31,399 nucleotides of DNA from a virus, in IMG/VR virus record IMGVR_UViG_3300001530_000192. One strand, 5' to 3'. The notes below the pieces were generated by a model that made no database searches, was not told where the DNA came from, and saw only the letters and a list, made by a program, of their open reading frames with translations. The position numbers and the translations under genes are program-made. Each line of letters begins with the position of its first letter. Position 1 is the stretch's first letter. Of the stretch, positions 1-31,399 are shown piece after piece.

Positions 1-150
1 CACTATTACCATAGCCGCCGACACCGCAGAAGCCCGAAGCAGACCATACATCTCTTAACCAATACCATTGTCTAGCATTACTATCATTAAATGCTATTTG
101 CTTACTCTTATCCAATCTAAATAAAGATAATTGTGACTTATCAATAGTAT
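1..150. repeat. Terminal direct repeat, left copy. It is identical to 31250..31399 and reflects the overlap of a circular or terminally redundant genome.
   Basis: Bases 1-150 (cactattaccatagccgccgacacc...caatagtat) recur base for base at 31250-31399. The unit length is therefore 31249 bp. Confidence 0.95.
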
Positions 151-766
151 AACTTGCAGGTGTATTTGTTCCATTTGTTATATTACTAAAGAAACTTGCA
201 CCATATACCATATATTCATTCATTAATTCGATTGTAGAGTCAGTCCATTCGCCATCACTTGCATATCCATTAGTTACAGTCTTTGTCAACCAACTTCTAT
301 GTCTTAAAATATGACTAGAGCCAAAATCATTATTTATGACAGTTTTAAAAGGTGCTAAATAAGTAGTATACATTTTACTACCTTTATAACCACCTGTAGA
401 AACATTACTATCATTCATTTTAGCAGTTCCCATACTTAATTCAGGTATCATTAAAACATGTGGTGTGGTACATTCTGTATCGCCACAATGAAGTCTATAA
501 TTAATATCTGCTACTAAATATTTTCTACCACTATTTCTACCTATAATATAATCACCGATAAATATATCATCAAATGTTCCATTAGCAATTTGAGTAGATA
601 AAGTACCATCATAGAATAAATCTGTGATATCTTTACCTCTATATATTGAATTATGAAATCCTGCATTTGGTCTATTCAATATATCGCTTAATTGTTCATC
701 TTTATAGTAAATAGAACTACTTTCTATTCCATTACCATTTTTTACTCTATATATTTTTTTACTCAT
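1..766 (-). CDS. DGR variable target protein, 5' part (candidate tail fibre / receptor-binding protein). The ORF runs off the left edge and continues 31249 -> 31194 across the circular seam, giving 273 aa in total.
   Basis: ATG at 766-764 is preceded by AGGAGG (775-780, minus sense). Hand translation MSKKIYRVKNGNGIESSSIYYKDEQLSDILNRPNAGFHNSIYRGKD...ARQWYWLRDVWSASGFCGVGGYGNS stays open to base 1. The frame is continuous with 31249..31194 once the overlap is removed (822 nt = 274 codons). The ORF is absent from the ORF track because the window edge splits it. Confidence 0.85.
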   Translation of the reverse strand, partial: MSKKIYRVKNGNGIESSSIYYKDEQLSDILNRPNAGFHNSIYRGKDITDLFYDGTLSTQIANGTFDDIFIGDYIIGRNSGRKYLVADINYRLHCGDTECTTPHVLMIPELSMGTAKMNDSNVSTGGYKGSKMYTTYLAPFKTVINNDFGSSHILRHRSWLTKTVTNGYASDGEWTDSTIELMNEYMVYGASFFSNITNGTNTPASYTIDKSQLSLFRLDKSKQIAFNDSNARQWYWLRDVWSASGFCGVGGYGNS

Positions 767-778
767 AGATTATTCCTC

Positions 779-1504
779 CTATTCTATTGTCCTTGATAAT
801 TCAAAATCTAATATATTTTCTTGAATTTCTGCGACATCTTCTAATAATTGGTCAACATTAGGTGTAATTTCATCAATTTCATTTTGTAAATGACCTGCGA
901 CATCTGTAGATAATTGACCTTTTACATGTTCGAACCATGTATCAAAGTCACCTGTCATTGTATCAATTGTATTATCAAATATTGCTTGAATTTGAATAAA
1001 TAATTGTTCTGTATCAGGTGTTTGTACTGTAGATATAACATTACCACAATCACTTGTTATAAATCTCGTATCAGTAACTAAATTTTGAGTTATTTCAGTA
1101 GTTCCTGCAGGAACACTAATTTTTGCAATTCTTAAATCATATATAGTAGATGTTCTAACTAAATCAGGAGCAACAGGGTTTTCTGCAAATGTACCTTTAA
1201 CTACCATTGCAGTTATAGTCCTTTCAGTTAAATTCCATCTAATTACAACATTATCAATACGATTTAAAACACCATCGGCATTCTCTACTGTTAGTGTTTT
1301 AATTGCATCATTATCATATCTATAACCATTTATATTTGCAGAACCTATACTTACATTAACAGACATATCATCATTATCTGCTAATACTTGGCAACCATTA
1401 TTAAATATACCATTAGTAAAATATGTGGCTAAATGTCTTGCAAAATCTTCTGCATAATAGACTCTATCGCCATCAACATCATTAAAAAAACTAAACTTTT
1501 CCAT
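779..1504 (-). CDS. Tail fibre / baseplate-associated structural protein (function inferred from position).
   Basis: ORF track, 241 aa. GGAGG lies upstream of ATG 1504. The gene lies between the Gp37-like tail protein and the DGR target. Its stop codon overlaps the RBS of the target gene. Confidence 0.55.
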   Translation of the reverse strand: MEKFSFFNDVDGDRVYYAEDFARHLATYFTNGIFNNGCQVLADNDDMSVNVSIGSANINGYRYDNDAIKTLTVENADGVLNRIDNVVIRWNLTERTITAMVVKGTFAENPVAPDLVRTSTIYDLRIAKISVPAGTTEITQNLVTDTRFITSDCGNVISTVQTPDTEQLFIQIQAIFDNTIDTMTGDFDTWFEHVKGQLSTDVAGHLQNEIDEITPNVDQLLEDVAEIQENILDFELSRTIE

Positions 1505-1518
1505 ATCATCATCCTCCT

Positions 1519-2565
1519 TTAAGAATTAATATCTATATTATCAACAAATGGTATTCCAAATGTGACATATATTTTTTGATTATTATTTTCAATAGTTTCT
1601 TCTATTTCAGTAATTCTTCTTTTTAGTGTTATTCCCCATGACTCTTTGTTGATATTAACAATGTCACCTAAATCCCATAATTTTTTATAGTCATCGGCAT
1701 ATACTGTTACCTCTAGAGTTATAGTTTGTTCTACTAAATTCTCATTACCTTTAGTTTTTAATACTTCTTTGTATTGTGCAAGTGTTAAATCACCTTGATT
1801 TTCAGATTTAGCATCTACAAATACCTCTCTTAAATCTAGGTCGGTATAAGTTCCACTTGTTACTTCTGCCATTATTCTTGCATCATCTTCACCTTGACCA
1901 CCTATTAATGCATAATTCTTTTCAGTTTTAGCACTATAAGTGTAATTGGCTACTTCTATATTTGATTTATCTTCACTAAATTCATATCTAGGATTTACTG
2001 ATTGTGTTTCAGTCCTATCTTTACCTTGATAATTTTCATAAATATACTTTTTATTTGGAATATCAATTGATATTCTATGTGCAATTGTTGATAACTTGGC
2101 TAAACTAACCAAATATTCATATACATTCTTATAACTTACTTGAAAAATAACATTATCTGAACTAATATCAGTATTTTTGATTTCTAAACGAGAAAAAGGA
2201 GTCATTGCATTCAATATTTTCCTTTCACCTGCTAAATATGTACCATTGTGATTAATTTTATTTTTTATTATTCTTCTTTCTAATATACTAGATAAGAACC
2301 TACCATAAATTATAACTTCAACACCTGCTTCACCTGCATCGTTGATTGTATAACTTTCAACAATTCCAACTTCTACTGCATCACTTCTAATTATTAAATT
2401 ATCTTTTTGTAGAAATTTATAAGTATTTTCATTTAATGGGATATGAAGTTCGAACTCACCTGCTTCAAAGTATTTTCTTCGCCATCTTAAAGACTTAAAA
2501 AAATCAATTATTCCGATGAGTTCGACATTTTTGTTATATACATATATTTCAAATTCTTCAATCAT
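1519..2565 (-). CDS. Tail-associated protein, siphovirus Gp37-like (tail tip / Tal position).
   Basis: 348 aa. The N-terminus MIEEFEIYVYNKN..LIGIID.F.SL.W.RKY.E.GEFELHIP resembles the Sipho_Gp37 family as I recall it. Its start overlaps the stop of the upstream Dit-like gene (TAATG). The call rests on synteny after the tape measure and Dit. Confidence 0.55.
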   Translation of the reverse strand: MIEEFEIYVYNKNVELIGIIDFFKSLRWRRKYFEAGEFELHIPLNENTYKFLQKDNLIIRSDAVEVGIVESYTINDAGEAGVEVIIYGRFLSSILERRIIKNKINHNGTYLAGERKILNAMTPFSRLEIKNTDISSDNVIFQVSYKNVYEYLVSLAKLSTIAHRISIDIPNKKYIYENYQGKDRTETQSVNPRYEFSEDKSNIEVANYTYSAKTEKNYALIGGQGEDDARIMAEVTSGTYTDLDLREVFVDAKSENQGDLTLAQYKEVLKTKGNENLVEQTITLEVTVYADDYKKLWDLGDIVNINKESWGITLKRRITEIEETIENNNQKIYVTFGIPFVDNIDINS

Positions 2566-3425
2566 TATACTGCCTCATATTCATTTGAATACTCAATTAC
2601 TGCTTCTAGATTATCTACACCTGTATCGGCATTATATCTAAAAGTATTACTTCCATGATGAACTTGTAAGAATTTACTACCATATACCATTAAATTATTT
2701 ATATTTTCTTCTATCCCTGTACTTATAGGAATATAAACTATATTTTTATTTTGCCTATATGTACTTACTATAATCTTGTCACCTGCAGACATAGTTTTTT
2801 CAATTTTCATTTCTTCCCTAGTATCTACATTAAATAATGATGGATTTTCAACTGTATCATTTGCAGTAAATGTTATTGTCATACCAAACTCAATATTTGT
2901 ATCATTTTGAATAGTAGCCATTGAAGTAGTATTTTTTCTACCAAATACAATACCACTATCACGAGGTATCCTTAATGCAAACTTAAATGCAGGTGACCAT
3001 GTTGCCATCTGCATTATAGTTGGTTCTAAATCAGTAAAATATGGATTTTGGCATATCAAAGATATTTGAAAATGTCTATATAATCCTTTTTCATTGACTC
3101 TAATACTCTCTACTTTATAATTTATCTTTCTCTTTAAATCACCCTCATAGTAATATAATGTTCCTGTGGATTTTAAAGGGAAAACACGATACAACTTTTG
3201 TCTATTAGCAATAATATCATTTCTAATAGCACCTTTTATAACAATATTTCGCTTTTCAATTGATGTTCCTACATAACTTTCACCAATTGCATAAGCACTT
3301 TTCATACCTGCAACTACACCTAATACTTCATGTAATCCATCGACACTTTCAAGGAAGAATGGAAATTTATAATCAAAGGTTATTTTTTCACCTAAATATG
3401 ACATACATACTATTCTTTTAGCCAT
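2565..3425 (-). CDS. Distal tail protein (Dit-like phage tail family protein).
   Basis: 286 aa, immediately downstream of the tape measure gene, which is the canonical siphovirus order. Confidence 0.65.
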   Translation of the reverse strand: MAKRIVCMSYLGEKITFDYKFPFFLESVDGLHEVLGVVAGMKSAYAIGESYVGTSIEKRNIVIKGAIRNDIIANRQKLYRVFPLKSTGTLYYYEGDLKRKINYKVESIRVNEKGLYRHFQISLICQNPYFTDLEPTIMQMATWSPAFKFALRIPRDSGIVFGRKNTTSMATIQNDTNIEFGMTITFTANDTVENPSLFNVDTREEMKIEKTMSAGDKIIVSTYRQNKNIVYIPISTGIEENINNLMVYGSKFLQVHHGSNTFRYNADTGVDNLEAVIEYSNEYEAV

Positions 3426-3437
3426 TTTCTATTCCTC

Positions 3438-5954
3438 CTATCCTACCATCTTTTGATATTGTAACTCTTGTCTTATTCTTCTAGCATACTCACTAGGTGA
3501 GTCTTTTGGTGAGTAAATATTGAATGTATTATTTTCAACACTACTAACAGGATTATTTGCACCTGTACCTAACGATAAACCATTAGTTCCAATGCTATTC
3601 AAATTAACTTTAGTATCTAAATCAAAGTCTGTTGGTAATGAATTTTGTATCATACTATTAACATCTTTCATTTCAGATGTAAAACCAACACCAATACCTT
3701 TTGCAAGATTACTACCAATTTCATCTCTAAATACTGTTGATGGTGAGTGAATACCAAATATTCCTTTTATACCTTTAACTATTGAACTACCAAAGCCTTT
3801 TATCTTATCCATTACCCAATCTTTAGCATTCTTAATACCATTCCATAATCCTTTAACCAAATCTTTACCTACATTAGCCATTCCACTTATTCCACTAACA
3901 ATACCATCTTTGACTTTTCCTAGTAATTCTTTACCTACACTCAACATTTTTCCAAAGTAATTTCCTATTCCTTTAACTAAAGAACCTATTATTTGAGGTA
4001 TTTTTGCAACAAGTTGAGGTATTGCTTGTACCAAACCTACTGCTAATTTAACAGTTAAGGTAATACCTGCTTCAATTATTTTTGGTAAATTATCAGTAAT
4101 TGCCATAATTAATTTATCAATTATTTCAGGTATTTTATCAATTAAATCAGGTAAGGCATTTATTAAACCATCTGCTAATCCTAATATCAATTGAATACCT
4201 GCATCAATAATTAAATCAATATTATCTAGTAATGTAGTTACCATAAGAACTAATGCATCAATCATTTGTGGAATTAATGTTGGTAATTGTTCTGCTATAC
4301 CTTGAACTAATGAAACTATTAATTGAATACCCATTTGCATTATTTGTGGAAGATTTTGTATGATAGTAGATACTAACATATTAATTATTTCCATTACTGC
4401 ACTCATTATCATAGGCATATTAGTAGTTAAACCATCTACTAATTTAGTAATAATCTTACTTCCTGACTCTAAAAATGCAGGTAATTGCTCTGAAATACCA
4501 TCTAATATCATAGGTAATGCTTCAAATACTGCATCTACAACTCTATCAACTGCTTTTAATACATTATTAACAACTCCACCATTGCCATCACCATCGCCTA
4601 CAAGAGATGAGAACAAATTCATTACCAATTGGCTTAAATCTGCACCATCTGTTGCTAAACCTGTTATTAAGTTACTCCATGCAGATTTTGTTGCTTTAAT
4701 AGAACCCTCAATTGTTCCCATTGCTTCTGCTTGTGTAGTTCCTGCAATATTACTTGCTACTTGGATTTCGTGGATTGCTTCTGTGATATCTGCAAAGTTA
4801 GAAACATCATATTTCTTTCCTGTCAATTTCTCGGCATCTTTAAGTAATCGTTCCATTTCGGTCTTAGTGCCTCCATATCCCAATTTTAGATTATCAAGCA
4901 TATTAAATTGACCTTTTGCAAAACCACTATATGCATTTTGAATTGATTGCATATCAGTACCGAATGTATTTGCATTATCAGACATATCTCGAAGTGCTTG
5001 GTCTGATAATTTCGCTGCCTTTTGAGTGTCGCCATTTAAAGAAACAATCATACTTTTACTAAATCCTGTAACTGTTTCCATATATTCATTAGCACTCATA
5101 CCTGCAGTAGAGAATGCATTATTGGCATTTGCTATAACTGTATTAGCAACATCATCACCAAATAATTTTTTAACACCACCCTCTAATTGTTCGAACTCAC
5201 CAAAACCTGCAACTGCATCTTTTCCTATATCTAACATTGCAGAACCAACAGATTTCATTGCACCTGCCAATCCTTTAATACCTGCAATAATACCCTCACT
5301 AATTAAGTTTCCTTTTATCAAATCACCTAATGTTAAGGTTTTTTGACCTGCATTTTCTTCTTCTTTAGCAAAGTCTTTTATAGATTTAGCATCACTATCA
5401 AAACTTTTACCTGCTTTATCTAATATTGAATTATTATCACCTATTTTCTTTGATAAATCACTACATTCAGATTTAGCATTATTCATTTTGATTTTGTAAT
5501 CATTAATCTTTTTATTATTGCTATCATAGGTACTTTCTGCTTTAGATAACTCTTTTTCAAGTTCTGCTACTACTTTTTCTTGTTTTGATATTTCAGAACT
5601 TGATGCAGTAGTGCTATTTTTCATCTTTTCTAATGCTTGTTTTTCACTATCTAATGAATTTTTAAGTTTATCTATTTCAGTTTTATTTTTTGTTTGTTGT
5701 TCAGTAAAATTCTTAATTGCATCGGCACATACTTTAACAACATTTTGTTCTTCTTTTAATTTTTTATTTAATGCATCATTTTGAGTTCTTAAATCACCTA
5801 TCTTTTGACCATTATTATTAAATTCAGTTGAGGCTAATTTTAATTCACTACTAACTGCTCTTAAATTACTATTAATGTTTCTTAATGCTTTAACATACTC
5901 ACTTTCACCTGATAATTTTACTGTACCACCAAATGAACTTGCCATAGATTTCAC
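3438..5954 (-). CDS. Tail tape measure protein.
   Basis: 838 aa. It has a coiled-coil K/E-rich N-terminus and long hydrophobic helical repeats (LPxIIxxLI...). It follows the frameshifted chaperone pair. RBS AGGAGGTG lies before ATG 5954. Confidence 0.9.
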   Translation of the reverse strand: MKSMASSFGGTVKLSGESEYVKALRNINSNLRAVSSELKLASTEFNNNGQKIGDLRTQNDALNKKLKEEQNVVKVCADAIKNFTEQQTKNKTEIDKLKNSLDSEKQALEKMKNSTTASSSEISKQEKVVAELEKELSKAESTYDSNNKKINDYKIKMNNAKSECSDLSKKIGDNNSILDKAGKSFDSDAKSIKDFAKEEENAGQKTLTLGDLIKGNLISEGIIAGIKGLAGAMKSVGSAMLDIGKDAVAGFGEFEQLEGGVKKLFGDDVANTVIANANNAFSTAGMSANEYMETVTGFSKSMIVSLNGDTQKAAKLSDQALRDMSDNANTFGTDMQSIQNAYSGFAKGQFNMLDNLKLGYGGTKTEMERLLKDAEKLTGKKYDVSNFADITEAIHEIQVASNIAGTTQAEAMGTIEGSIKATKSAWSNLITGLATDGADLSQLVMNLFSSLVGDGDGNGGVVNNVLKAVDRVVDAVFEALPMILDGISEQLPAFLESGSKIITKLVDGLTTNMPMIMSAVMEIINMLVSTIIQNLPQIMQMGIQLIVSLVQGIAEQLPTLIPQMIDALVLMVTTLLDNIDLIIDAGIQLILGLADGLINALPDLIDKIPEIIDKLIMAITDNLPKIIEAGITLTVKLAVGLVQAIPQLVAKIPQIIGSLVKGIGNYFGKMLSVGKELLGKVKDGIVSGISGMANVGKDLVKGLWNGIKNAKDWVMDKIKGFGSSIVKGIKGIFGIHSPSTVFRDEIGSNLAKGIGVGFTSEMKDVNSMIQNSLPTDFDLDTKVNLNSIGTNGLSLGTGANNPVSSVENNTFNIYSPKDSPSEYARRIRQELQYQKMVG

Positions 5955-12613: not shown

Positions 12614-12641
12614 AAGTAAAAACAGACATTTCTGCCTGTTT
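12614..12641 (-). terminator. Terminator-like hairpin plus T-run between terL and portal.
   Basis: The minus-strand RNA forms aaacaggc-agaaat-gtctgttt (an 8-bp stem with one G-U pair that only forms on the minus strand), followed by ttttt. Confidence 0.5.
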
Positions 12642-12665
12642 CATTTTATTTCATTATCTCACATT

Positions 12666-12701
12666 TACATTATAACATAATATGAGTGTGAAAAATGTGA
12701 A
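12666..12701 (-). promoter_or_regulatory. Conserved late-promoter-like motif, copy 1: TTCACA-N4-TCACACT-N7-TGTTATAATGTA (minus sense).
   Basis: Plus strand reads tacattataaca-taatatg-agtgtga-aaaa-tgtgaa. The same blocks and spacing occur at 15638-15673 and 29133-29168. It contains an extended -10 (TGnTATAAT). Confidence 0.5.
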
Positions 12702-15029: not shown

Positions 15030-15467
15030 TTAAAAGGCAGGGGGGATGGTTGCTCCACCCTCTACTGCCTCTACTTCTGCTTTTATTTTCTTTAAATCAC
15101 AATCTTCTTTAATTAATTCTTGCAATATTTTTCTTGGTATGACATTATTATCACTTAATTTATGATGATAACAACACAAAGTTATAAGGTTTTCATCATC
15201 TAATCTTCGGGAATAATCTTCTTCTAATGGAATTATGTGATGAACTTCTAACTTGTTGAAGTTATAAATACTAGAGGTGTTATAGATATCTGCGATGCAA
15301 CATCTACATAAATGTTTATCTCTATTTCTTATATCTTCACTCTTTTTATGCCATTTATAAGTCTTTCTGAACTTATCTGCATCTGTTAAACCTCTAACCT
15401 GTCTATTCTTATAGCATGTCTTATTAAAATCGTGTATCTTTCCACACCTACTACAACTCTTTAGCAT
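15030..15467 (-). CDS. hnh: HNH endonuclease (terminase-associated).
   Basis: It has the HNH motif EVHHIIPLEED...NLITLCCYHH plus CxxC pairs. It lies immediately upstream of terS, as in HK97-like cos phages. Confidence 0.85.
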   Translation of the reverse strand: MLKSCSRCGKIHDFNKTCYKNRQVRGLTDADKFRKTYKWHKKSEDIRNRDKHLCRCCIADIYNTSSIYNFNKLEVHHIIPLEEDYSRRLDDENLITLCCYHHKLSDNNVIPRKILQELIKEDCDLKKIKAEVEAVEGGATIPPAF

Positions 15468-15626: not shown

Positions 15627-15637
15627 ACTATTCACCA

Positions 15638-15673
15638 TACATTATACCACTAATTTAGTGTGAGTTTTGTGAA
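15638..15673 (-). promoter_or_regulatory. Conserved late-promoter-like motif, copy 2 (TTCACA-N4-TCACACT-N7-TGGTATAATGTA).
   Basis: Plus strand reads tacattatacca-ctaattt-agtgtga-gttt-tgtgaa. The 27-mer 15654-15680 is identical to 29149-29175. Confidence 0.5.
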
Positions 15674-15676
15674 TTA

Positions 15677-16171
15677 TTAACATATATCAAATAAAGATAA
15701 TTGCATTTGTGGTTGTATATTTTTTGCTTCAATAAAGTCTTTTAAAAAGTCATCTATATTTGAATAATCATTTTGATTAAATCCATCACTAAAACCTCCA
15801 CCATGCCAATTTAATTCATTTCTATATTTTTTATTAGCATTATAATCAAAATATAAAACATAATCGTATTTGTTAAATAAATAATGTTTTTCATCAGTTT
15901 TTTCTATTGCTATTGTCAAATCATATTTTTCTGATTTGATTAGTAATTGATGTTCATGGATAGAGTCTAATAATTCTTGTATTTCAACATTATACTTAAC
16001 TTGAATATAATCCATTATGGATTTAAAAAAATTAACTTCCATATTATCTTCCTTTCTTGATTTTATACAATCAGGACATAAACACTTATTATCTATACCT
16101 TTTAAATAATCAAATTTCCCACATTCATCACATTTATCTTTAAAATTATTCTTGTGGCATTTCATATACAT
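15677..16171 (-). CDS. Hypothetical protein with an N-terminal Cys-rich (zinc-finger-like) segment.
   Basis: 164 aa. CDECGK...CLCPDC motifs are present. Confidence 0.55.
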   Translation of the reverse strand: MYMKCHKNNFKDKCDECGKFDYLKGIDNKCLCPDCIKSRKEDNMEVNFFKSIMDYIQVKYNVEIQELLDSIHEHQLLIKSEKYDLTIAIEKTDEKHYLFNKYDYVLYFDYNANKKYRNELNWHGGGFSDGFNQNDYSNIDDFLKDFIEAKNIQPQMQLSLFDIC

Positions 16172-17067: not shown

Positions 17068-17697
17068 TTAACTTCCTAAATAAAAGTTCTTTCTTTTAGT
17101 ATTTTTATCATTATTATCCCAACATATATATAATAATGTGACTCTTTCGTTAGAGTGATTTAACATTTCTTTTAATCCTATGATATCGCCTGTTTCTTCA
17201 TAGTATGACCTAGCAAAATATTTTCTTAATGAGTGGCATCCAACAGGATATCCTACTTTTACCTCATCTGATAATTGTTTTATAACCTGCCATGCTCTTT
17301 GCCTTGTAATTGGCATATTAATACCTTTTCTACTCTTAAATAAATATTCACCCTCAATTAATTCATTTCTATTAATATAATCTGCTATATCCTTTGCTAA
17401 TGATGGATGTAATTCAAATGATTGTTCTTTATTTGTTTTAAATTCTCTTGTATATACAGAACCATTCTTAAAATTATCAACTTTTAATTGTAAAATATCC
17501 TCAATTCTAAAGGCAAGGTTCATGCCAATAACTAATATCATATAGTTTCTATCCCATAGATATTGTTGTTCTTCATTGCCATCATCTTCTGCTTGGTTTC
17601 TTCTTTTTTTACAATTGATTATCATATTATCAATATCTGCTTTTTTAAATGGTTGCACTGTCTTTCTACCGAACTTAATTCTAAAAGTCCTACTCAT
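17068..17697 (-). CDS. Short tyrosine recombinase consisting of the catalytic domain only (second recombinase in this genome).
   Basis: 209 aa. It carries an R (AFRIEDIL), an HxxR box (CHSLRK), LNHSN and a terminal tyrosine (VTLLYI). There is no N-terminal core-binding domain. RBS AGGAGGTG precedes the start. Confidence 0.7.
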   Translation of the reverse strand: MSRTFRIKFGRKTVQPFKKADIDNMIINCKKRRNQAEDDGNEEQQYLWDRNYMILVIGMNLAFRIEDILQLKVDNFKNGSVYTREFKTNKEQSFELHPSLAKDIADYINRNELIEGEYLFKSRKGINMPITRQRAWQVIKQLSDEVKVGYPVGCHSLRKYFARSYYEETGDIIGLKEMLNHSNERVTLLYICWDNNDKNTKRKNFYLGS

Positions 17698-25542: not shown

Positions 25543-26586
25543 ATGAAATTACCTAATTCTTTCGGCTCTGTACAGAAGTTGAGTGGTAATAGAAGAAAAC
25601 CTTATCGAGTAGTCAAAACTGTTGGATGGGATGAAAATGGAAAACAAATCAGAAAGACTATTGGATATTATGAAACTAGAACCCTCGCATTACAGGAATT
25701 AGCCTTATTTAATGAAAAACCTTATGATATAGATGCAAGAAATATTACAGTAGATGAATTACATCAAAAATGGCAAAATGAGAAATATCCTAAAATAGCA
25801 TATAAGACTCAACAAGTATATAATATGTGTTGGAATTATTGTCAAGATGTTAAGAATATGGCATTTGTAGATATCAGATTAAATCATTTACAAGCAATCG
25901 TTGATGGTATGGGTAATAAATGGTCTGCTAAAAAGGCATTTAAGATATTATGGCATCAGATGTACGATTATGCGATTAAAAATGATATGGATGTAAGAAA
26001 GTATTCAGAATACATCGATATAGGCAAAAAAACCACTAAATTAGTGCGAATACCATTTGAAGAGGATGAAATAGACAAGTTATGGGATAATGTTGCTAGA
26101 ATGGACTTTATTGACACGATATTAATACTTATTTATACAGGAATGAGAGTCGGCGAACTTTTAGATATTAAAGTAGAAAATGTTCATATAAACGAAAAAT
26201 ACATGGTTGGTGGCTCTAAAACCGAAGCAGGTAAAGATAGAGTCATACCATTCCATGAACGAATAGTACCATTAGTAAAGAAATGGTATGATAATGCAAT
26301 TAAAAATGGTAGTGAATACCTAATATATAATCACGAATATAAACAAATGAAATATTGGAACTATTATCATGAGAAATGGGAAAAGATTATAGAACAATTA
26401 GAGTTTAGTCCTGAACATAAGCCTCACGATACTAGACATACATTCTCTACTCGTATGGATAGAACCAATGCTAATAAATTATGTATAAAAAGAATACTAG
26501 GACATGCTAGTAAGGATATTACTGATAAAGTTTATACACATAAAGACATTGATGACCTATTAGAAGCAGTTAATATGTTAAAATAA
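25543..26586 (+). CDS. int: Tyrosine integrase.
   Basis: 347 aa. It has ..TGMRVGELL.., HDTRHTFSTR and LGHAS...T..VYTH (the R-H-R-Y catalytic set), plus an N-terminal arm/core-binding region. Confidence 0.9.
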   Translation: MKLPNSFGSVQKLSGNRRKPYRVVKTVGWDENGKQIRKTIGYYETRTLALQELALFNEKPYDIDARNITVDELHQKWQNEKYPKIAYKTQQVYNMCWNYCQDVKNMAFVDIRLNHLQAIVDGMGNKWSAKKAFKILWHQMYDYAIKNDMDVRKYSEYIDIGKKTTKLVRIPFEEDEIDKLWDNVARMDFIDTILILIYTGMRVGELLDIKVENVHINEKYMVGGSKTEAGKDRVIPFHERIVPLVKKWYDNAIKNGSEYLIYNHEYKQMKYWNYYHEKWEKIIEQLEFSPEHKPHDTRHTFSTRMDRTNANKLCIKRILGHASKDITDKVYTHKDIDDLLEAVNMLK

Positions 26587-27254: not shown

Positions 27255-27289
27255 GGCTAGGAATATATCCTAGCCTTTTTATTTTTTTT
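27255..27289 (+). terminator. Rho-independent terminator of the plus-strand moron cassette.
   Basis: ggctagga-atata-tcctagcc, followed by tttttatttttttt. Confidence 0.7.
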
Positions 27290-27322
27290 GTGTGTGCTAC
27301 TTGTGTGCTACTTGTGTGCTAC
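27290..27322 (+). repeat. Three tandem 11-bp iterons (t/g)TGTGTGCTAC.
   Basis: gtgtgtgctac ttgtgtgctac ttgtgtgctac. Confidence 0.85.
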
Positions 27323-27360
27323 ATACTAGATTTAACGAGGTTTATCGAGTATCTTAATAT

Positions 27361-27393
27361 AAGAAAAACCCCATAAACATTGAGTTTATAGGG
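27361..27393 (-). terminator. Hairpin plus T-run (minus sense) in the centre of the iteron-flanked noncoding region.
   Basis: ccccataaac (27369-27378) pairs with gtttataggg (27384-27393) at 9 of 10 positions. On the minus strand it is followed by TTTTTCTT. Confidence 0.45.
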
Positions 27394-27463
27394 TTCGTAA
27401 TAGGTATGTTTCCTATCTCTTTGTAAATTGATGTCCTTTATATTTCAAGGAAAAAAAGGGTAT

Positions 27464-27485
27464 TTGTGTGCTACCTGTGTGTTAC
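27464..27485 (+). repeat. Two further tandem iterons of the same 11-bp family.
   Basis: ttgtgtgctac ctgtgtgttac, in the same orientation as the copies at 27290-27322. Confidence 0.8.
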
Positions 27486-27525
27486 TGAATAGACTTTATA
27501 AGTACTTTATTTTATTAAATAGACA

Positions 27526-27567: not shown

Positions 27568-28428
27568 TTAAAATAATTTAATATTATCCCATCTAGTAAG
27601 ACCTGCATTTAAGTTCTTATTTACTTGATTTTGAACTTCATCATATCTTGAACCTAATGCTTTTCTACGAGCATCACCATTACCAAAATCACCTCTAATA
27701 GTTTTTTTAACTAATGTTAATAGGTCATCAGATGGTTGTGATGGTGTGCTAGGTGTTGATGGTTGACTTGGTGCAGGTTTTCCAACACCTTTATCAACTA
27801 ATGCTTGAACTGCATTATATCTAGAACCTAATTTTGCCTTTCTAGTATCGCCATTACCAAATTCACCTGTCCATACTCTTCTAGCAAGTTCTTCATCGCT
27901 TACACCTTTAAATGGGTCATCTTGACTAGGTGTTCCTGCATGAACATCACCAATAGCAGGGTTAACAATACAACCTCTGAATTTGTAACCACTACTTAAT
28001 CCCCATCTTCCATTTGAATTTGTTCTTATACTATTCCAAAATGCACTAGAACCATATCCACTTTCAGATGTATAGATTTGATTAGCACTATCAATTCTTT
28101 CTACTACTGCAACATGTCCTGCACCATCAGAGCCATTTAAGGTATTTCCTTTTTGCCATACCATAATACCACCTAATGTTGGATATGATACAACTTGTAA
28201 TCCTAAACTTTTTGCTCTTTCGATAAAGTTTTCTGCATTACAATTTAGAGCAGGATATTTCATGCTTCCAATTATTTCATTAAATCTACCACAAGCATAC
28301 CCTACACAGTTAGCAAGTACATTTGCATTTGCATCTGTTGGATATCCTTGAATACAAGTTGAATAACCACCTCTAGATTTAGTGATATAGAACTTATTGC
28401 CACTAGGCTTACTTGTTCTCATTTGCAT
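27568..28428 (-). CDS. Endolysin: N-terminal CHAP domain plus two CW_7 (Cpl-7-like) cell-wall-binding repeats.
   Basis: The CHAP Cys lies in NCVGYACGRF and the His in GHVAVVE. The two repeats are GEFGNGDTRKAKLGSRYNAVQALV and GDFGNGDARRKALGSRYDEVQNQV, separated by a P/S/T linker. The start is reset to ATG 28428 (MQMRTSKP) after GAGGAGGTGG. Confidence 0.85.
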   Translation of the reverse strand: MQMRTSKPSGNKFYITKSRGGYSTCIQGYPTDANANVLANCVGYACGRFNEIIGSMKYPALNCNAENFIERAKSLGLQVVSYPTLGGIMVWQKGNTLNGSDGAGHVAVVERIDSANQIYTSESGYGSSAFWNSIRTNSNGRWGLSSGYKFRGCIVNPAIGDVHAGTPSQDDPFKGVSDEELARRVWTGEFGNGDTRKAKLGSRYNAVQALVDKGVGKPAPSQPSTPSTPSQPSDDLLTLVKKTIRGDFGNGDARRKALGSRYDEVQNQVNKNLNAGLTRWDNIKLF

Positions 28429-28567
28429 CTTCTTCCACCTCCTCTTTGTTTTCAACTGTACAATCATCACCCTCTACTAATGCATCAATTCCATCAGTAT
28501 TGAATACTGTTTGTACTTCTTGTTCTTCTGTTACTTCTTCTGTAACATTTGTTTCCTTTTCTTCCAT
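28409..28567 (-). CDS. Small, highly acidic protein (52 aa) between the holin and the endolysin.
   Basis: AAAGGAGGG precedes ATG 28567. The protein begins MEEKETNVTEEVTEEQEVQ... The longer ORF-track N-terminus has no SD sequence. Confidence 0.5.
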   Translation of the reverse strand: MEEKETNVTEEVTEEQEVQTVFNTDGIDALVEGDDCTVENKEEVEEDANENK

Positions 28568-28610
28568 CTTTATCCCTCCTTTTGAAGAAAAATATATATA
28601 AAAAAGAGAA

Positions 28611-28814
28611 CTATTTGTTCTCTTTCTTACTATAATTTGCACTAGATATACCTAGTATTACACCTAAAGCAGTATCAATAGCAGTAATTGTAGCACCTAT
28701 TTCTTCGCCATAAGGTATATTCCATATCTTAAATACAGTTATTACCAATGTAGCGATTGCAGGTAATACATACATTGCTATTTTCTTTAAAGTATCATAA
28801 GTTTTATTACTCAT
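28611..28814 (-). CDS. Holin (phage_holin_1 / phiLC3-like).
   Basis: 67 aa. The pattern MSNKTYDTLKKIAMYVLPAIATLV....IW.IPYGEEI..TI.AI...LG..LGIS is typical of this family. Two TM helices are predicted. Confidence 0.8.
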   Translation of the reverse strand: MSNKTYDTLKKIAMYVLPAIATLVITVFKIWNIPYGEEIGATITAIDTALGVILGISSANYSKKENK

Positions 28815-28833
28815 ACTACCACCTCTTTTCTAT

Positions 28834-29073
28834 TTATTTAGGACTTATTTGTATTAATGCAAATATTAAACCTACAATTCCTGCAATAATTGCACCTACA
28901 ATAGTCCTTGATAACCATTTGATTTTGTCTTTTATTTCATCAATATCCCTTTCATTCTGAATAGATAAATTATGGGCATCATCAGTTTTTTCTTTCATGG
29001 TATTGTAATCATCTAATTTTGTTTCAATTTTAGTAAGTCTATCTAAAACTTCCCTCTCAAAACCTTTTTCCAT
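28834..29073 (-). CDS. xhlA: XhlA-family lysis-associated membrane protein.
   Basis: 79 aa with an N-terminal coiled coil (LDRLTKIETKLDD...) and a C-terminal TM helix, located upstream of the holin. Confidence 0.7.
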   Translation of the reverse strand: MEKGFEREVLDRLTKIETKLDDYNTMKEKTDDAHNLSIQNERDIDEIKDKIKWLSRTIVGAIIAGIVGLIFALIQISPK

Positions 29074-29122: not shown

Positions 29123-29132
29123 ATTATCTATA

Positions 29133-29168
29133 TACATTATAACACGATTTTAGTGTGAGTTTTGTGAA
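29133..29168 (-). promoter_or_regulatory. Conserved late-promoter-like motif, copy 3 (TTCACA-N4-TCACACT-N7-TGTTATAATGTA), overlapping the RT stop codon.
   Basis: Plus strand reads tacattataaca-cgatttt-agtgtga-gttt-tgtgaa. Confidence 0.5.
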
Positions 29169-30286
29169 TTATTAAGAAATAAATCATTGAATAATTTATC
29201 CATATTTAATAATGTTCTATGACAGTCATATTTAGCAATATTTCCTCGCCATGATTTGTATTGCTCTTCTATTTCATTAAATGTCATCTCATTATTATCT
29301 AACATTTTCTTAAAACTCTTTAATTTTCTTCTTTCTCTAACTATATTGCTCTTTACAGGTATTCTAACAAGATGTCCTGTATCAGTTAAACGATATTTTA
29401 TCTTTAAAAATGTAAAACCTTTATCTATTCTAAATATTTGTGTTTTCTTTTTATTGATAAATATACCTAATTTATCACATATAACAACAATATCTTCTAA
29501 TAATTGTTTTAACTCTTCTTTATTGTTACTTAAAATATAGGTATCATCCATATATCTTCCATAATATTTCATTTTTTTAACTATTTTACAATAATTATCC
29601 ATCCTAGTAGGATAATAAATGCCTGAAATTTGCGATATTTGGCTACCTATACCTAATGACTTATGAATGTATCTTTCGCCTGTCCTAGCACCTGTTTTTT
29701 TAGCATAAGTCAAAGAGTCAAATAAGTCTTTTTCTGTTGCATCATAATTTGATACATCTATTGAAAAACTATCTATAAGATGAGCAATTAAATTTAATAT
29801 ATCCTCATCATCAATGATTTCTTTATACATATCCATTAATGGCTTATGTAAAATATTATCATAAAACTTGCTAAAATCGATAATGAGTGCATATCCACGA
29901 TTTCCATACTTTCTATAATACTTGTGTAAGTGAGTTTCAACTCTCTTACGAGCAAAATCAATACCTTTATTCTTTATACTTGCACCATTATCATAAGTTA
30001 GATATGGTGTAACTATGGGAGTCAATTGGTCGCATAATGCTCTTTGTACAACTCTATCATAGAAACTAATGGAGCGAACATATCTCTCTTTACCTCTTTC
30101 ACACAAAAAGAAGTTATCAAATGCACCTTGCTTATAGGTTTTATTCCTTAACTCTATTTGTGTTTTTCTTATATTTTTAAGTAAATTGGCTTCATATTGT
30201 TGAACACTATTTTTCCATATACTATTTTTTCTTGTTTTATAGAAACTATCAACTAAAACATTGGCATTACTAATCTTATCAATCAT
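29150..30286 (-). CDS. rt: DGR-type reverse transcriptase.
   Basis: 378 aa. The RT motifs are IIDFSKFYDNI, SLGIGSQISQ (the DGR-diagnostic [LIV]GxxxSQ motif 4) and RYMDDTYIL (YMDD). The N-terminal ..FYDRVVQRALCDQL.. is typical of DGR RTs. The TR lies 122 nt upstream. Confidence 0.93.
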   Translation of the reverse strand: MIDKISNANVLVDSFYKTRKNSIWKNSVQQYEANLLKNIRKTQIELRNKTYKQGAFDNFFLCERGKERYVRSISFYDRVVQRALCDQLTPIVTPYLTYDNGASIKNKGIDFARKRVETHLHKYYRKYGNRGYALIIDFSKFYDNILHKPLMDMYKEIIDDEDILNLIAHLIDSFSIDVSNYDATEKDLFDSLTYAKKTGARTGERYIHKSLGIGSQISQISGIYYPTRMDNYCKIVKKMKYYGRYMDDTYILSNNKEELKQLLEDIVVICDKLGIFINKKKTQIFRIDKGFTFLKIKYRLTDTGHLVRIPVKSNIVRERRKLKSFKKMLDNNEMTFNEIEEQYKSWRGNIAKYDCHRTLLNMDKLFNDLFLNNSQNSH

Positions 30287-30407
30287 ATTTTGTTCCTAAC
30301 TCTAATTGACTTATCAAAGAGTATCAAAATATCTATTTGCCTCTCGGACAGGATAAAGTTTCCTTTTAATTCTTGCAACGGTACTTAACCTAATCATTGT
30401 GCAAGTT
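30287..30407 (-). ncRNA. DGR spacer region between the TR and the RT start (the noncoding part of the TR-containing RNA).
   Basis: It has no ORF. It contains the stem cttgca/tgcaag (minus sense: CTTGCAcaatgattaggttaagtaccgtTGCAAG) immediately 3' of the TR. Its role is inferred by analogy with the BPP-1 DGR RNA. Confidence 0.4.
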
Positions 30408-30492
30408 AAAATCAGGGGCGAACACCACCAGAGTTGGAAGCATTGTTGTAGTTACTATTACCATTGTTGTTGACATTGCAGAAGCCCGAAGC
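30408..30492 (-). repeat. DGR template repeat (TR).
   Basis: 85 bp align without gaps to 31205-31289 (offset 797). All differences lie at plus-strand T, which is coding-strand A, in this copy. In the VR frame it reads ASGFCNVNNNGNSNYNNASNSGGVRP, with 9 AAY codons. It lies in the noncoding gap between the avd-like gene and the RT. Confidence 0.9.
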
Positions 30493-30513: not shown

Positions 30514-31074
30514 TTACCCTTTGTTTTCTTCTTCTTTTTTATCTATTTCTTTTATTATTCTATTATCAGATTTTCGCCAACCTTTTAACAACACAATCTC
30601 TTTTTCAATCATATCAACATATCTCATGTATTTCTCTACATTCGGATGACATACATATATAACATATTGCATTTCTTGAAGAAGATTTTCACAATCAATA
30701 ATTGCTTGTGTTTGATAATTTCTTCGCAAATAGTATTCTTCTTTATTAGTTATATGAATTGTATTTGCAGAGCAAATATTCTTCATCATATCTCTCAATA
30801 AATCCATGAAATAATCTCGTTCTTTGTCTATTAGCCATGATGGAAAATTATCAATGAAACTATTTTTGATATCGTATGCAGAGAGAATATCTTCTATTTG
30901 TTCAATATCTTCTTCATCAATATCATATACTTCTTGAGCAAATTCCAAATTTCTTCTTCTTGACTTTATTCCGAAATCTTTCAAAAGAAATTCAGTCATC
31001 ATCAATCTTAATTTTATAGCATTATGATAAAACTCCATCTTTGAAATGTTTCTTTTCCTTTTCAACACACTCAA
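30514..31074 (-). CDS. avd: Avd-like accessory variability determinant candidate (helical, basic termini, atypically long).
   Basis: It lies between the VR and the TR, exactly where avd sits in canonical DGRs. It is 186 aa with predicted helical heptad-like segments and K/R-rich ends. The start is uncertain (TTG 31074 or ATG 31038). I did not see the canonical Avd family motif. Confidence 0.5.
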   Translation of the reverse strand: MSVLKRKRNISKMEFYHNAIKLRLMMTEFLLKDFGIKSRRRNLEFAQEVYDIDEEDIEQIEDILSAYDIKNSFIDNFPSWLIDKERDYFMDLLRDMMKNICSANTIHITNKEEYYLRRNYQTQAIIDCENLLQEMQYVIYVCHPNVEKYMRYVDMIEKEIVLLKGWRKSDNRIIKEIDKKEEENKG

Positions 31075-31124: not shown

Positions 31125-31158
31125 TTCATTACAGGAAATTTGATATTTATTTAATCTA

Positions 31159-31196
31159 TAATCTGCCACCCCATAAAGGGGTGTGATTGCAGATTA
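31159..31196 (-). promoter_or_regulatory. Hairpin/cruciform element immediately 3' of the VR (DGR homing-associated structure). It overlaps the target stop codon.
   Basis: The outer stem taatctgc (31159-31166) pairs with gcagatta (31189-31196). The inner GC stem cacccc (31167-31172) pairs with ggggtg (31178-31183). The loop is 5 nt and there is a 5-nt bulge. Confidence 0.6.
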
Positions 31197-31399
31197 ATAG
31201 ATTAAAAAGCAGGGGCGAACACCACCAGAGTCGGAAGCATTGGGGTAGGCACTATTACCATAGCCGCCGACACCGCAGAAGCCCGAAGCAGACCATACAT
31301 CTCTTAACCAATACCATTGTCTAGCATTACTATCATTAAATGCTATTTGCTTACTCTTATCCAATCTAAATAAAGATAATTGTGACTTATCAATAGTAT
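31194..31399 (-). CDS. DGR variable target protein, 3' part (C-terminal variable region). This is the same gene as 1..766 joined through the circular seam.
   Basis: The frame is continuous with 766..1. The C-terminus reads ...WYWLRDVWSASGFCGVGGYGNSAYPNASDSGGVRPCFLIY, ending at TAA 31194-31196. Confidence 0.85.
   Translation of the reverse strand, partial: TIDKSQLSLFRLDKSKQIAFNDSNARQWYWLRDVWSASGFCGVGGYGNSAYPNASDSGGVRPCFLIY
31205..31289 (-). repeat. DGR variable repeat (VR) at the 3' end of the target gene. Positions 31250-31289 are duplicated at 1-40.
   Basis: It aligns to TR 30408-30492. There are 12 substitutions in the 80-bp core plus 1 at the 3' boundary, and every one lies opposite a TR adenine. 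Confidence 0.9.
31250..31399. repeat. Terminal direct repeat, right copy (identical to 1..150).
   Basis: See the left copy (1..150). Confidence 0.95.

What the first reader, a model, noticed from the sequence alone, without database searches (positions are those of the whole stretch)
1..766. The diversified protein is the last gene of the tail module, with a C-terminal C-type-lectin-like variable region, so it is probably the receptor-binding protein
The 273-aa target follows the tape measure, Dit, the Gp37-like protein and a fibre-like ORF directly, and its RBS overlaps the preceding stop codon. Its C-terminus (QWYWLRDVWSASGFCGVGGYGNSAYPNASDSGGVRPCFLIY) has the W-rich / G-rich ...GVRP... ending recalled from DGR variable proteins with the Mtd/TvpA-type CLec fold. 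All variable residues cluster in the last ~25 residues. This predicts host-range or tropism switching for a gut- or Firmicutes-type temperate phage. The N-terminal ~230 residues have no motif I can name.
Basis: partly seen in the sequence, partly recalled or inferred. Interest (0 to 1): 0.7.

Follow-up and report, generated by a model that had tools for sequence, protein, structure and literature searches.

The report
DGR-diversified receptor-binding head of a phage tail
The 273-residue protein is a real target of a diversity-generating retroelement and most likely the separately encoded receptor-binding head of a temperate gut phage's tail tip; this kind of system has already been described.

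Summary
The window is a circular 31,249-bp temperate siphovirus genome. A 273-aa gene spans the junction and is the last tail gene. Next come an Avd-like ORF, a template repeat (TR), a Brt-like reverse transcriptase (RT), holins and an endolysin.

All 14 differences between TR and the variable region (VR) fall on TR adenines. Nine AAY codons map to residues 248-262. In two sets of 15 near-identical natural variants, almost only these positions vary, so the element is active.

An AlphaFold model (pLDDT 92) shows residues 34-273 as one globular domain of the DUF6273 type. Published work already lists DUF6273 as a DGR target and calls it C-type-lectin-like. The model matches the Thomasclavelia ramosa IgA-peptidase N-terminal domain. 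It gives only weak, though numerous, C-type-lectin hits. It shows no similarity to Mtd.

The upstream 241-aa gene matches the shoulder and helical neck of lactococcal P335 group III receptor-binding proteins but has no head. Seven homologues fuse that shoulder-neck directly to this domain. The target is therefore most likely the detachable head of a two-piece receptor-binding protein.

This is a new member of a known kind. Interest is modest.

The parts
1..766 (-). DGR target gene, codons 1-255 (start ATG at 766..764). Residues 1-33 are the variable adaptor and residues 34 onward the DUF6273-type head domain. Bases 1-40 are the 5' part of VR in the left-hand copy.
   Evidence: Translation across the circle junction gives 273 aa. 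AlphaFold model pLDDT 92.1. 2,948 homologues found.
31194..31399 (-). 3' end of the same target gene as read in the right-hand copy (31250-31399 duplicates 1-150). It encodes the C-terminal residues and the stop codon (31196..31194).
31203..31289 (-). Variable region (VR), codons 243-271, ending in the G+C-rich run GGTGGTGTTCGCCCCTG.
   Evidence: 87 nt aligned to TR with 14 mismatches, all at TR adenines. Natural variants differ at the nine AAY positions.
31150..31206 (-). Strong hairpin that begins in the last codons of the target gene, just 3' of VR. It may be the DGR target-recognition hairpin, a terminator, or both.
   Evidence: DNA fold -18.1 kcal/mol, z = -6.6 against shuffles. A hairpin/cruciform 3' of VR as a target-recognition element in BPP-1 is my recollection of PMC3240598, seen here only as title and abstract.
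30514..31074 (-). 186-aa Avd-like accessory ORF between VR and TR.
   Evidence: Weak PHROG 'Avd protein of DGR' hit, E 7e-4. No Pfam or NCBIfam hit. A homologue (24-100% identity) lies between the target and the RT in about 36 of the 60 related loci examined.
30406..30492 (-). Template repeat (TR), with nine AAY codons in the frame of VR.
29150..30286 (-). DGR reverse transcriptase, 378 aa, with IGSQISQ and YMDD motifs.
   Evidence: Pfam RVT_1 E 2.9e-22. PHROG 1423 E 4.8e-75. 25% identity to BPP-1 Brt, E 4e-25.
779..1504 (-). 241-aa headless receptor-binding-protein homologue (shoulder plus helical neck), the proposed docking partner of the target.
   Evidence: 34% identity, E 2e-31, to residues 1-205 of the 343-aa RBP of Lactococcus phage 63301. 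Also matches phiLC3 and r1t. Seven homologues fuse this module to the target's domain.
1519..2565 (-). Short Tal-like protein (Sipho_Gp37 family).
   Evidence: Pfam E 1.1e-62. 25% identity, E 4e-13, to phage 63301 Tal.
2565..3425 (-). Distal tail protein, Dit.
   Evidence: Pfam Sipho_tail and SPP1_Dit. E 6e-11 to phage 63301 Dit.
3438..5954 (-). Tape measure protein.
   Evidence: PHROG 58, E 1.6e-77.
27568..29073 (-). Lysis module (two holins and a CHAP + CW_7 endolysin). It follows the DGR cassette and marks the end of the virion genes.

Best explanation
The 273-aa protein is the receptor-binding head of a two-piece receptor-binding protein (RBP) at the tail tip of a temperate gut-Firmicutes siphovirus. 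Its binding surface is rewritten by a DGR.

Shown:
- The tail-tip genes Dit, short Tal and a 241-aa protein are collinear with, and homologous to, the Dit-Tal-RBP device of lactococcal P335 group III phages.
- The 241-aa protein has only the shoulder and helical neck of that RBP.
- The next gene, whose ribosome-binding site overlaps the preceding stop codon, encodes a 33-residue adaptor followed by a roughly 240-residue DUF6273-type domain.
- Some relatives fuse shoulder-neck and this domain in one chain, joined exactly at target residue 34.
- The DGR cassette is complete. Natural variants differ almost only at the nine AAY-derived residues 248-262, plus A-to-G changes in the AGT codon (255) and the TAC codon (257).

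Inferred:
- The head docks on the neck of the 241-aa protein through residues 1-33, probably as a trimer.
- TR RNA is copied by the RT with errors at adenines, and the cDNA replaces VR, as in BPP-1.
- The diversified loop (about 6e11 possible peptides) contacts a variable cell-surface receptor, so phage progeny sample new host variants.
For: DGR anatomy.
- TR and VR differ at 14 positions, all at TR adenines, and TR has nine AAY codons.
- The RT is homologous to Brt, with IGSQISQ and YMDD motifs.
- An Avd-like ORF is conserved at this position in related loci.
- A hairpin lies just 3' of VR.

Activity.
- In two sets of 15 near-identical variants (91-98% identity to the reference of each set), entropy is 2.2-3.4 bits at exactly the nine AAY positions. 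Y257 also appears as C, and S255 as G. Other columns are almost all invariant.
- 37 of 46 related loci carry a TR with at least 80% of mismatches at adenines.

Fold.
- The AlphaFold model has pLDDT 92.1 and pTM 0.88.
- Its one significant PDB match is 9qa6, E 7.9e-6. The N-terminal domain of that protein is DUF6273 (PMC12402451).
- It has 28 significant matches among predicted viral structures, including proteins named DUF6273, 'Receptor Binding Protein' and 'Tail-collar fiber'.
- 20 of the other 49 PDB hits are C-type-lectin-like domains.

Tail-tip role.
- The domain is C-terminal in nearly all of 150 representative proteins of 187-977 aa.
- Relatives carry N-terminal tail-collar fibre, collagen, phage-fibre-repeat or BppU_N modules.
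- In Lactobacillus phage JCL1032 ORF23, annotated as a structural/tail fibre protein, the domain follows a collagen-like stalk.
- The 241-aa protein matches RBP shoulder and neck. The domain layout is described in PMC9692632.
- Seven fused homologues exist.
- Dit and Tal are homologous to those of phage 63301.
- All 13 related loci whose target N-terminus aligns from residues 1-5 also have the 241-aa homologue, against 19 of 38 for the others.
Against: - No experiment places this protein or a close relative in virions or shows that it binds a receptor.
- Docking of the head on the 241-aa protein was not modelled.
- The Pfam DUF6273 score is just below the curated cut-off (22.9 against 23.5 bits).
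- There is no significant sequence or Foldseek similarity to Mtd or TvpA.
- The Avd assignment is weak.
- In JCL1032 the experimentally implicated anti-receptor is a different gene, ORF20. A DUF6273 fibre can therefore coexist with another adhesin.
Confidence: 0.72

Rival explanations
1. The protein is in the virion but is an accessory adhesin, not the primary receptor-binding module. It would bind a variable secondary ligand, such as a cell-wall glycan or gut mucus or host glycoprotein. The essential receptor would be recognised by another tail-tip protein.
For: JCL1032 carries a homologous fibre (ORF23) alongside a separate Gp71-like anti-receptor, ORF20. The same fold is the N-terminal domain of a secreted T. 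ramosa IgA peptidase (PMC12402451). Accessory adhesion modules are known in P335 phages (PMC9692632).
Against: This phage has no other head-bearing RBP candidate. The 241-aa protein lacks a head, and the Tal is of the short type. Fused homologues put this domain exactly where the RBP head sits.
Confidence: 0.18
2. The protein is not part of the virion. It would be a prophage-expressed or otherwise cellular variable ligand-binding protein that happens to be encoded next to the tail genes.
For: Many DGR targets in bacteria are cellular proteins (established knowledge of DGRs). No virion proteomics exists for this phage.
Against: The gene is translationally coupled to the last tail gene, in the same orientation as the late genes. 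Pfam and NCBIfam scans gave no hit other than DUF6273; signal peptides and anchors were not specifically tested. Relatives are fused to tail-fibre and RBP-shoulder modules.
Confidence: 0.04
3. The cassette is an inactive relic, and the TR/VR differences are old.
For: Activity was not observed directly in this one contig.
Against: Independent, otherwise near-identical copies each carry a different VR, with changes restricted to TR-adenine positions. The RT reading frame is intact and keeps YMDD.
Confidence: 0.02

Closest known systems
Bordetella phage BPP-1 DGR (Mtd, Avd, TR, Brt)
   Same: Same gene order: tail fibre, target with VR at its 3' end, avd, TR, RT, then lysis genes. Adenine-specific TR/VR differences are concentrated in AAY codons. 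The RT is homologous.
   Different: No detectable sequence similarity between the target and Mtd (hhalign 0.8%), and none between the Avd-like ORF and Bbp7. BPP-1 has a short tail, whereas this phage has a siphovirus tail module. Mtd has N-terminal beta-prism and beta-sandwich domains (PMC10743442), whereas this protein has a 33-residue adaptor.
DUF6273-type DGR targets: tgt2 of phages nd4 and nd12, and targets of Faecalibacterium prophages Lelie, CP11, Roos and Pioen
   Different: The proteins are divergent. Those papers do not describe the link to a P335-type RBP shoulder and neck, or the fused and split forms.
Acutalibacter phage Fontainebleau (ON453893), a cultured mouse-gut phage
   Same: Same synteny: tape measure, two minor tail proteins, homologue of the 241-aa protein, target homologue (49% identity over residues 80-273), Avd-like ORF, RT, holin, amidase. 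TR/VR pair with 16 of 19 mismatches at adenines.
   Different: Its target is 311 aa with a longer N-terminal part. Its host is an Oscillospiraceae species with higher G+C.
RBP of lactococcal P335 group III phages (phiLC3, r1t, 63301)
   Same: Collinear, homologous Dit, short Tal and RBP shoulder plus helical neck (PMC9692632).
   Different: The lactococcal RBP is one 343-aa chain with a beta-sandwich head and no DGR. Here the head is a DUF6273-type domain encoded by a separate gene and diversified.
Lactobacillus phage JCL1032 ORF23 (annotated structural / tail fibre protein)
   Same: 41.6% identity over residues 32-272. The domain sits at the C-terminus of a fibre with a collagen-like repeat.
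   Different: No RT homologue was found in the 18.7-kb region examined around the gene. The protein is 474 aa and a single chain.
N-terminal domain of the Thomasclavelia ramosa IgA peptidase (PDB 9qa6)
   Same: The only significant match among solved structures (E 7.9e-6). The domain is annotated DUF6273 (PMC12402451).
   Different: It is part of a secreted bacterial protease, is not diversified, and its function is unknown.

Membership tests
Diversity-generating retroelement (DGR) | Reverse transcriptase of the DGR type, homologous to Brt, with the [I/L/V]GxxxSQ motif and YMDD | tested here: met
   E 4e-25 to Brt. IGSQISQ aligns with Brt IGSLTSQ, and RYMDD is present. PHROG 1423 E 4.8e-75.
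Diversity-generating retroelement (DGR) | TR/VR pair whose differences fall at TR adenines, with VR at the 3' end of an ORF | tested here: met
   87 nt, 14 of 14 mismatches at TR adenines. VR covers codons 243-271 of 273.
Diversity-generating retroelement (DGR) | Avd accessory protein | tested here: inconclusive
   Only a weak PHROG Avd hit (E 7e-4). No Pfam or NCBIfam hit and no BLAST similarity to Bbp7. The position between VR and TR is conserved in related loci.
Diversity-generating retroelement (DGR) | Ongoing adenine-directed diversification | tested here: met
   Natural near-identical copies vary at the nine AAY positions, plus the A-bearing TAC codon and, in one variant, the AGT codon.
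Diversity-generating retroelement (DGR) | G+C-rich end of VR and a hairpin 3' of VR that function in target recognition | not testable with these tools
   The sequence features are present. Their function needs homing assays.
DUF6273 (Pfam PF19789) | Pfam profile score at or above the gathering cut-off | tested here: inconclusive
   22.9 bits against a cut-off of 23.5 for this protein. 70 of 110 aligned family members match at E <= 0.001, and most close homologues carry the precomputed PF19789 annotation.
DUF6273 (Pfam PF19789) | Same fold as a solved or predicted DUF6273 domain | tested here: met
   9qa6, E 7.9e-6, probability 1.00. Ten DUF6273-named viral models match at E <= 2e-4.
Mtd/TvpA-type C-type-lectin-fold DGR variable proteins | Detectable homology to Mtd | tested here: not met
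   hhalign probability 0.8%. Profile searches of PDB sequences found no relative.
Mtd/TvpA-type C-type-lectin-fold DGR variable proteins | C-type-lectin fold by structure comparison | tested here: inconclusive
Mtd/TvpA-type C-type-lectin-fold DGR variable proteins | Variable residues form a solvent-exposed binding face | not testable with these tools
   No model coordinates were available. Exposure is only inferred: 14 different residues, including Pro and Arg, are seen at these positions in the natural variants sampled.
p2/phiLC3-type lactococcal RBP (shoulder, neck, head) | Shoulder and helical neck homologous, encoded after Dit and a short Tal | tested here: met
   Met by the 241-aa upstream protein. 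Dit and Tal are homologous.
p2/phiLC3-type lactococcal RBP (shoulder, neck, head) | Head domain in the same polypeptide, with the beta-sandwich fold | tested here: not met
   The head is a separate gene of a different fold. Single-chain versions with this fold exist in relatives.

The most novel reading that the evidence does not exclude
The RBP of a P335/p2-type baseplate has been split. A headless shoulder-neck trimer stays on Dit. A separately encoded, DGR-diversified, C-type-lectin-like head docks on it non-covalently through a 33-residue adaptor. Heads could then be diversified, and perhaps exchanged, without touching the baseplate anchor. Single-chain and split versions coexist in nature.
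Probability: 0.55. Interest if true: 0.4.

Novelty: new member of a known kind. Interest (0 to 1): 0.3.

Why it matters
This is a clean, complete and demonstrably active DGR in a small (31 kb) temperate phage of uncultured low-G+C gut Firmicutes. Homology also ties the DUF6273 class of DGR targets to a structurally understood adhesion device, the lactococcal Dit-Tal-RBP baseplate. That gives a concrete, testable picture of where the diversified domain sits.

The system has a cultured relative, Acutalibacter phage Fontainebleau, in which the prediction could be tested. It does not change what is known about DGRs.

Tried and rejected
1. A first AlphaFold run used only close homologues (53 sequences at 64-98% identity). 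It gave a poor model (pLDDT 67.6) and meaningless Foldseek hits. A diverse 110-sequence alignment was needed.

2. Sequence and profile searches of PDB chains with the protein and with both alignments found nothing relevant.

3. I suspected that JCL1032 'ORF474' was the homologue of this protein. ORF474 was implicated by host-range genetics, together with LL-H Gp71, in a paper cited in PMC3870949. This is wrong. Gp71 matches ORF20, which is also 474 aa (63% identity). It does not match ORF23 or the family profile. That experimental evidence therefore does not transfer.

4. The T. ramosa IgA-peptidase paper assigns no function to the DUF6273 N-terminal domain; substrate recognition is attributed to the catalytic domain. 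It gives no functional lead.

5. There is no second VR or second target in the genome, and no Rfam family.

6. NCBIfam gave no useful hit for the target, the 241-aa protein or the Avd-like ORF.

7. The PHROG label 'head protein' for the 241-aa protein was rejected in favour of RBP shoulder and neck.

Full report
**What is in the sequence**

The first 150 bases of the window recur at its end, so it is a circular contig of 31,249 bp with 28% G+C. Nearly all virion genes lie on the minus strand.

The gene in question starts at 766, runs to base 1 and continues at 31249..31194. The stated span 1-766 holds only codons 1-255, and the variable region straddles the junction.

The stop codon of the preceding ORF overlaps the ribosome-binding site: the minus strand reads TAGGAGGAATAATCTATG.

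Upstream lie the tape measure protein, Dit, a Sipho_Gp37 protein and a 241-aa ORF. Downstream lie a 186-aa ORF, a repeat, a reverse transcriptase, two holins and a CHAP/CW_7 endolysin. The protein is therefore the last gene of the tail module.

An integrase and a CI-like repressor are present. A 96%-identical copy of the protein lies in a prophage beside tilS and ftsH on a 95-kb metagenomic contig. The homology between window and prophage ends at window position about 27424.

**The retroelement**

TR (30492..30406) and VR (31289..31203) align over 87 nt with 14 mismatches, all at TR adenines. In the frame of the gene, TR carries nine AAY codons, at residues 248, 250, 251, 252, 254, 256, 258, 259 and 262. 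With the AGT and TAC codons this gives 20 adenines in the core, or about 6e11 possible peptides by arithmetic.

- The RT is 25% identical to BPP-1 Brt (E 4e-25) and carries IGSQISQ and YMDD motifs.
- The 186-aa ORF gives only a weak Avd hit. A homologue lies between the target and the RT in many related loci.
- A strong hairpin (z = -6.6) begins in the last codons of the gene.
- The gene order matches BPP-1: fibre, target, avd, TR, RT, lysis.
- No second VR exists in the genome.

**The element is active**

The protein lies in a cluster of 31 sequences at 90% identity, and a sister cluster has 493. In 15 sequences from each (for the first, 14 cluster members plus P0002), entropy is 2.2-3.4 bits at exactly the nine AAY positions. 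Y257 also appears as Cys (TAC to TGC), and in one variant S255 appears as Gly (AGT to GGT). Other columns are almost all invariant.

In 37 of 46 related genomic loci a TR lies downstream of the target, with at least 80% of mismatches at adenines.

**Fold**

A shallow alignment gave a poor model. A diverse alignment of 110 representatives gave pLDDT 92.1 and pTM 0.88. Residues 1-33 have low confidence and include a short helix. Residues 34-273 form one domain.

- Pfam places residues 209-272 on the C-terminal third of DUF6273, just under the cut-off. Seventy of 110 relatives match at E <= 0.001.
- Foldseek against the PDB gives one significant match, 9qa6 (E 7.9e-6), whose N-terminal domain is DUF6273 (PMC12402451).
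- Twenty of the other 49 hits are C-type-lectin-like domains, but none is individually significant. Neither Mtd nor TvpA appears.
- A profile comparison with Mtd gives 0.8% probability.
- Predicted viral structures give 28 significant matches, several named DUF6273, Receptor Binding Protein or Tail-collar fiber.

**Where the protein sits**

The family is large: 3,346 representative clusters at E <= 0.001. The domain is C-terminal in nearly all of the 150 listed representatives, which range from 187 to 977 aa. N-terminal partners in relatives include tail-collar fibre, collagen, phage-fibre-repeat and BppU_N modules.

In Lactobacillus phage JCL1032 ORF23, annotated as a structural or tail fibre protein, the domain follows a collagen-like repeat. 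That arrangement implies a trimeric stalk.

The upstream 241-aa protein is 34% identical (E 2e-31) to residues 1-205 of the 343-aa RBP of Lactococcus phage 63301, and it also matches phiLC3 and r1t. In phiLC3 this region forms the shoulders, which clamp onto Dit, and the helical neck. A beta-helix and the head follow (PMC9692632). The window protein ends before any head. Dit and the short Tal are also homologous to those of phage 63301.

Seven representative homologues (P0131, P0204, P0126, P0163, P0229, P0194, P0212) are single chains. Their N-terminal ~170-255 residues match the 241-aa protein and their C-terminal ~235-270 residues match the target. In P0131 the junction falls immediately before NAGAHN, which is target residue 34.

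All 13 related loci whose target N-terminus aligns from residues 1-5 also encode the 241-aa homologue. Among loci with other N-termini, 19 of 38 do.

**Interpretation**

The protein is most likely the detachable head of a two-piece RBP. It is shown that the cassette is complete and active, that the fold is of the DUF6273 type, and that relatives fuse this domain to an RBP shoulder and neck. It is inferred that residues 1-33 dock the head on the 241-aa protein, that the head is trimeric, that residues 248-262 are exposed, and that they contact a variable host receptor.

The main rival is an accessory adhesin. JCL1032 has a separate Gp71-like anti-receptor, ORF20, and the experimental evidence for that gene does not transfer to ORF23.

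**Novelty**

DGR-diversified DUF6273 tail proteins in gut Firmicutes phages are published. A cultured relative with the same synteny exists, Acutalibacter phage Fontainebleau. This is a new member of a known kind. The split-RBP anatomy is a modest addition that remains to be tested.

Noticed in passing
window 1-150 and 31250-31399: A 150-bp terminal direct repeat shows the contig is circular. The assembly break falls inside the DGR variable region, perhaps because VR heterogeneity in the sample broke the assembly graph there.
   Followed up: partly
window 31150-31206 (minus strand): A strong hairpin begins in the last codons of the target gene, just after the G+C-rich end of VR (-18.1 kcal/mol, z = -6.6). 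It could be a DGR target-recognition element, a terminator, or both.
   Followed up: partly
window 15637-15686 and 29132-29181; weaker copy at 12640-12701: A 50-nt intergenic element is repeated at 90% identity. Read on the minus strand it contains TGTTATAAT, an extended -10-like box. The copies overlap the end of the RT gene, upstream of the holin genes; overlap the end of ORF 16171..15677, upstream of ORF 15467..15030; and lie between the terminase and portal genes. It may be a repeated late promoter.
   Followed up: no
window about 27287-27496; prophage junction near 27424: Homology to the integrated copy (L003) ends at about 27424, downstream of the endolysin gene, so the attachment site lies there. 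Short TGTGTGCTAC-type repeats flank the spot. In L003 the host genes beyond the junction are tilS, ftsH and parA/parB.
   Followed up: partly
window 17068-17697 (minus strand): A second, small (209 aa) tyrosine-recombinase-family ORF lies among the early genes, in addition to the 347-aa integrase at 25543-26586.
   Followed up: no
window 30406-30414 versus 31203-31211 (minus strand): Two further A-to-N differences lie 3' of the G+C-rich run. TR reads TGA and TAA where VR reads TGC (Cys269) and TTA (Leu271). These residues are fixed in all natural variants examined, so they probably lie outside the tract that is copied.
   Followed up: partly
L001 (Lactobacillus phage JCL1032) 6400-7824 and 8299-9723: ORF20 and ORF23 are both exactly 474 aa, which makes the literature name 'ORF474' ambiguous. 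Only ORF20 matches the LL-H anti-receptor Gp71. ORF23 is the homologue of the window protein.
   Followed up: yes
PDB 9qa6 (Thomasclavelia ramosa IgA peptidase), N-terminal domain: [quoted passage not shown] The same domain therefore occurs in phage tail tips and in a bacterial protein that acts on a host molecule.
   Followed up: partly
L007, L057, L058 (related loci): Some related prophage loci sit in genome bins labelled Muribaculaceae, Collinsella or Synergistales. Given the Firmicutes-type lysis genes, these are more likely binning errors than real hosts.
   Followed up: no
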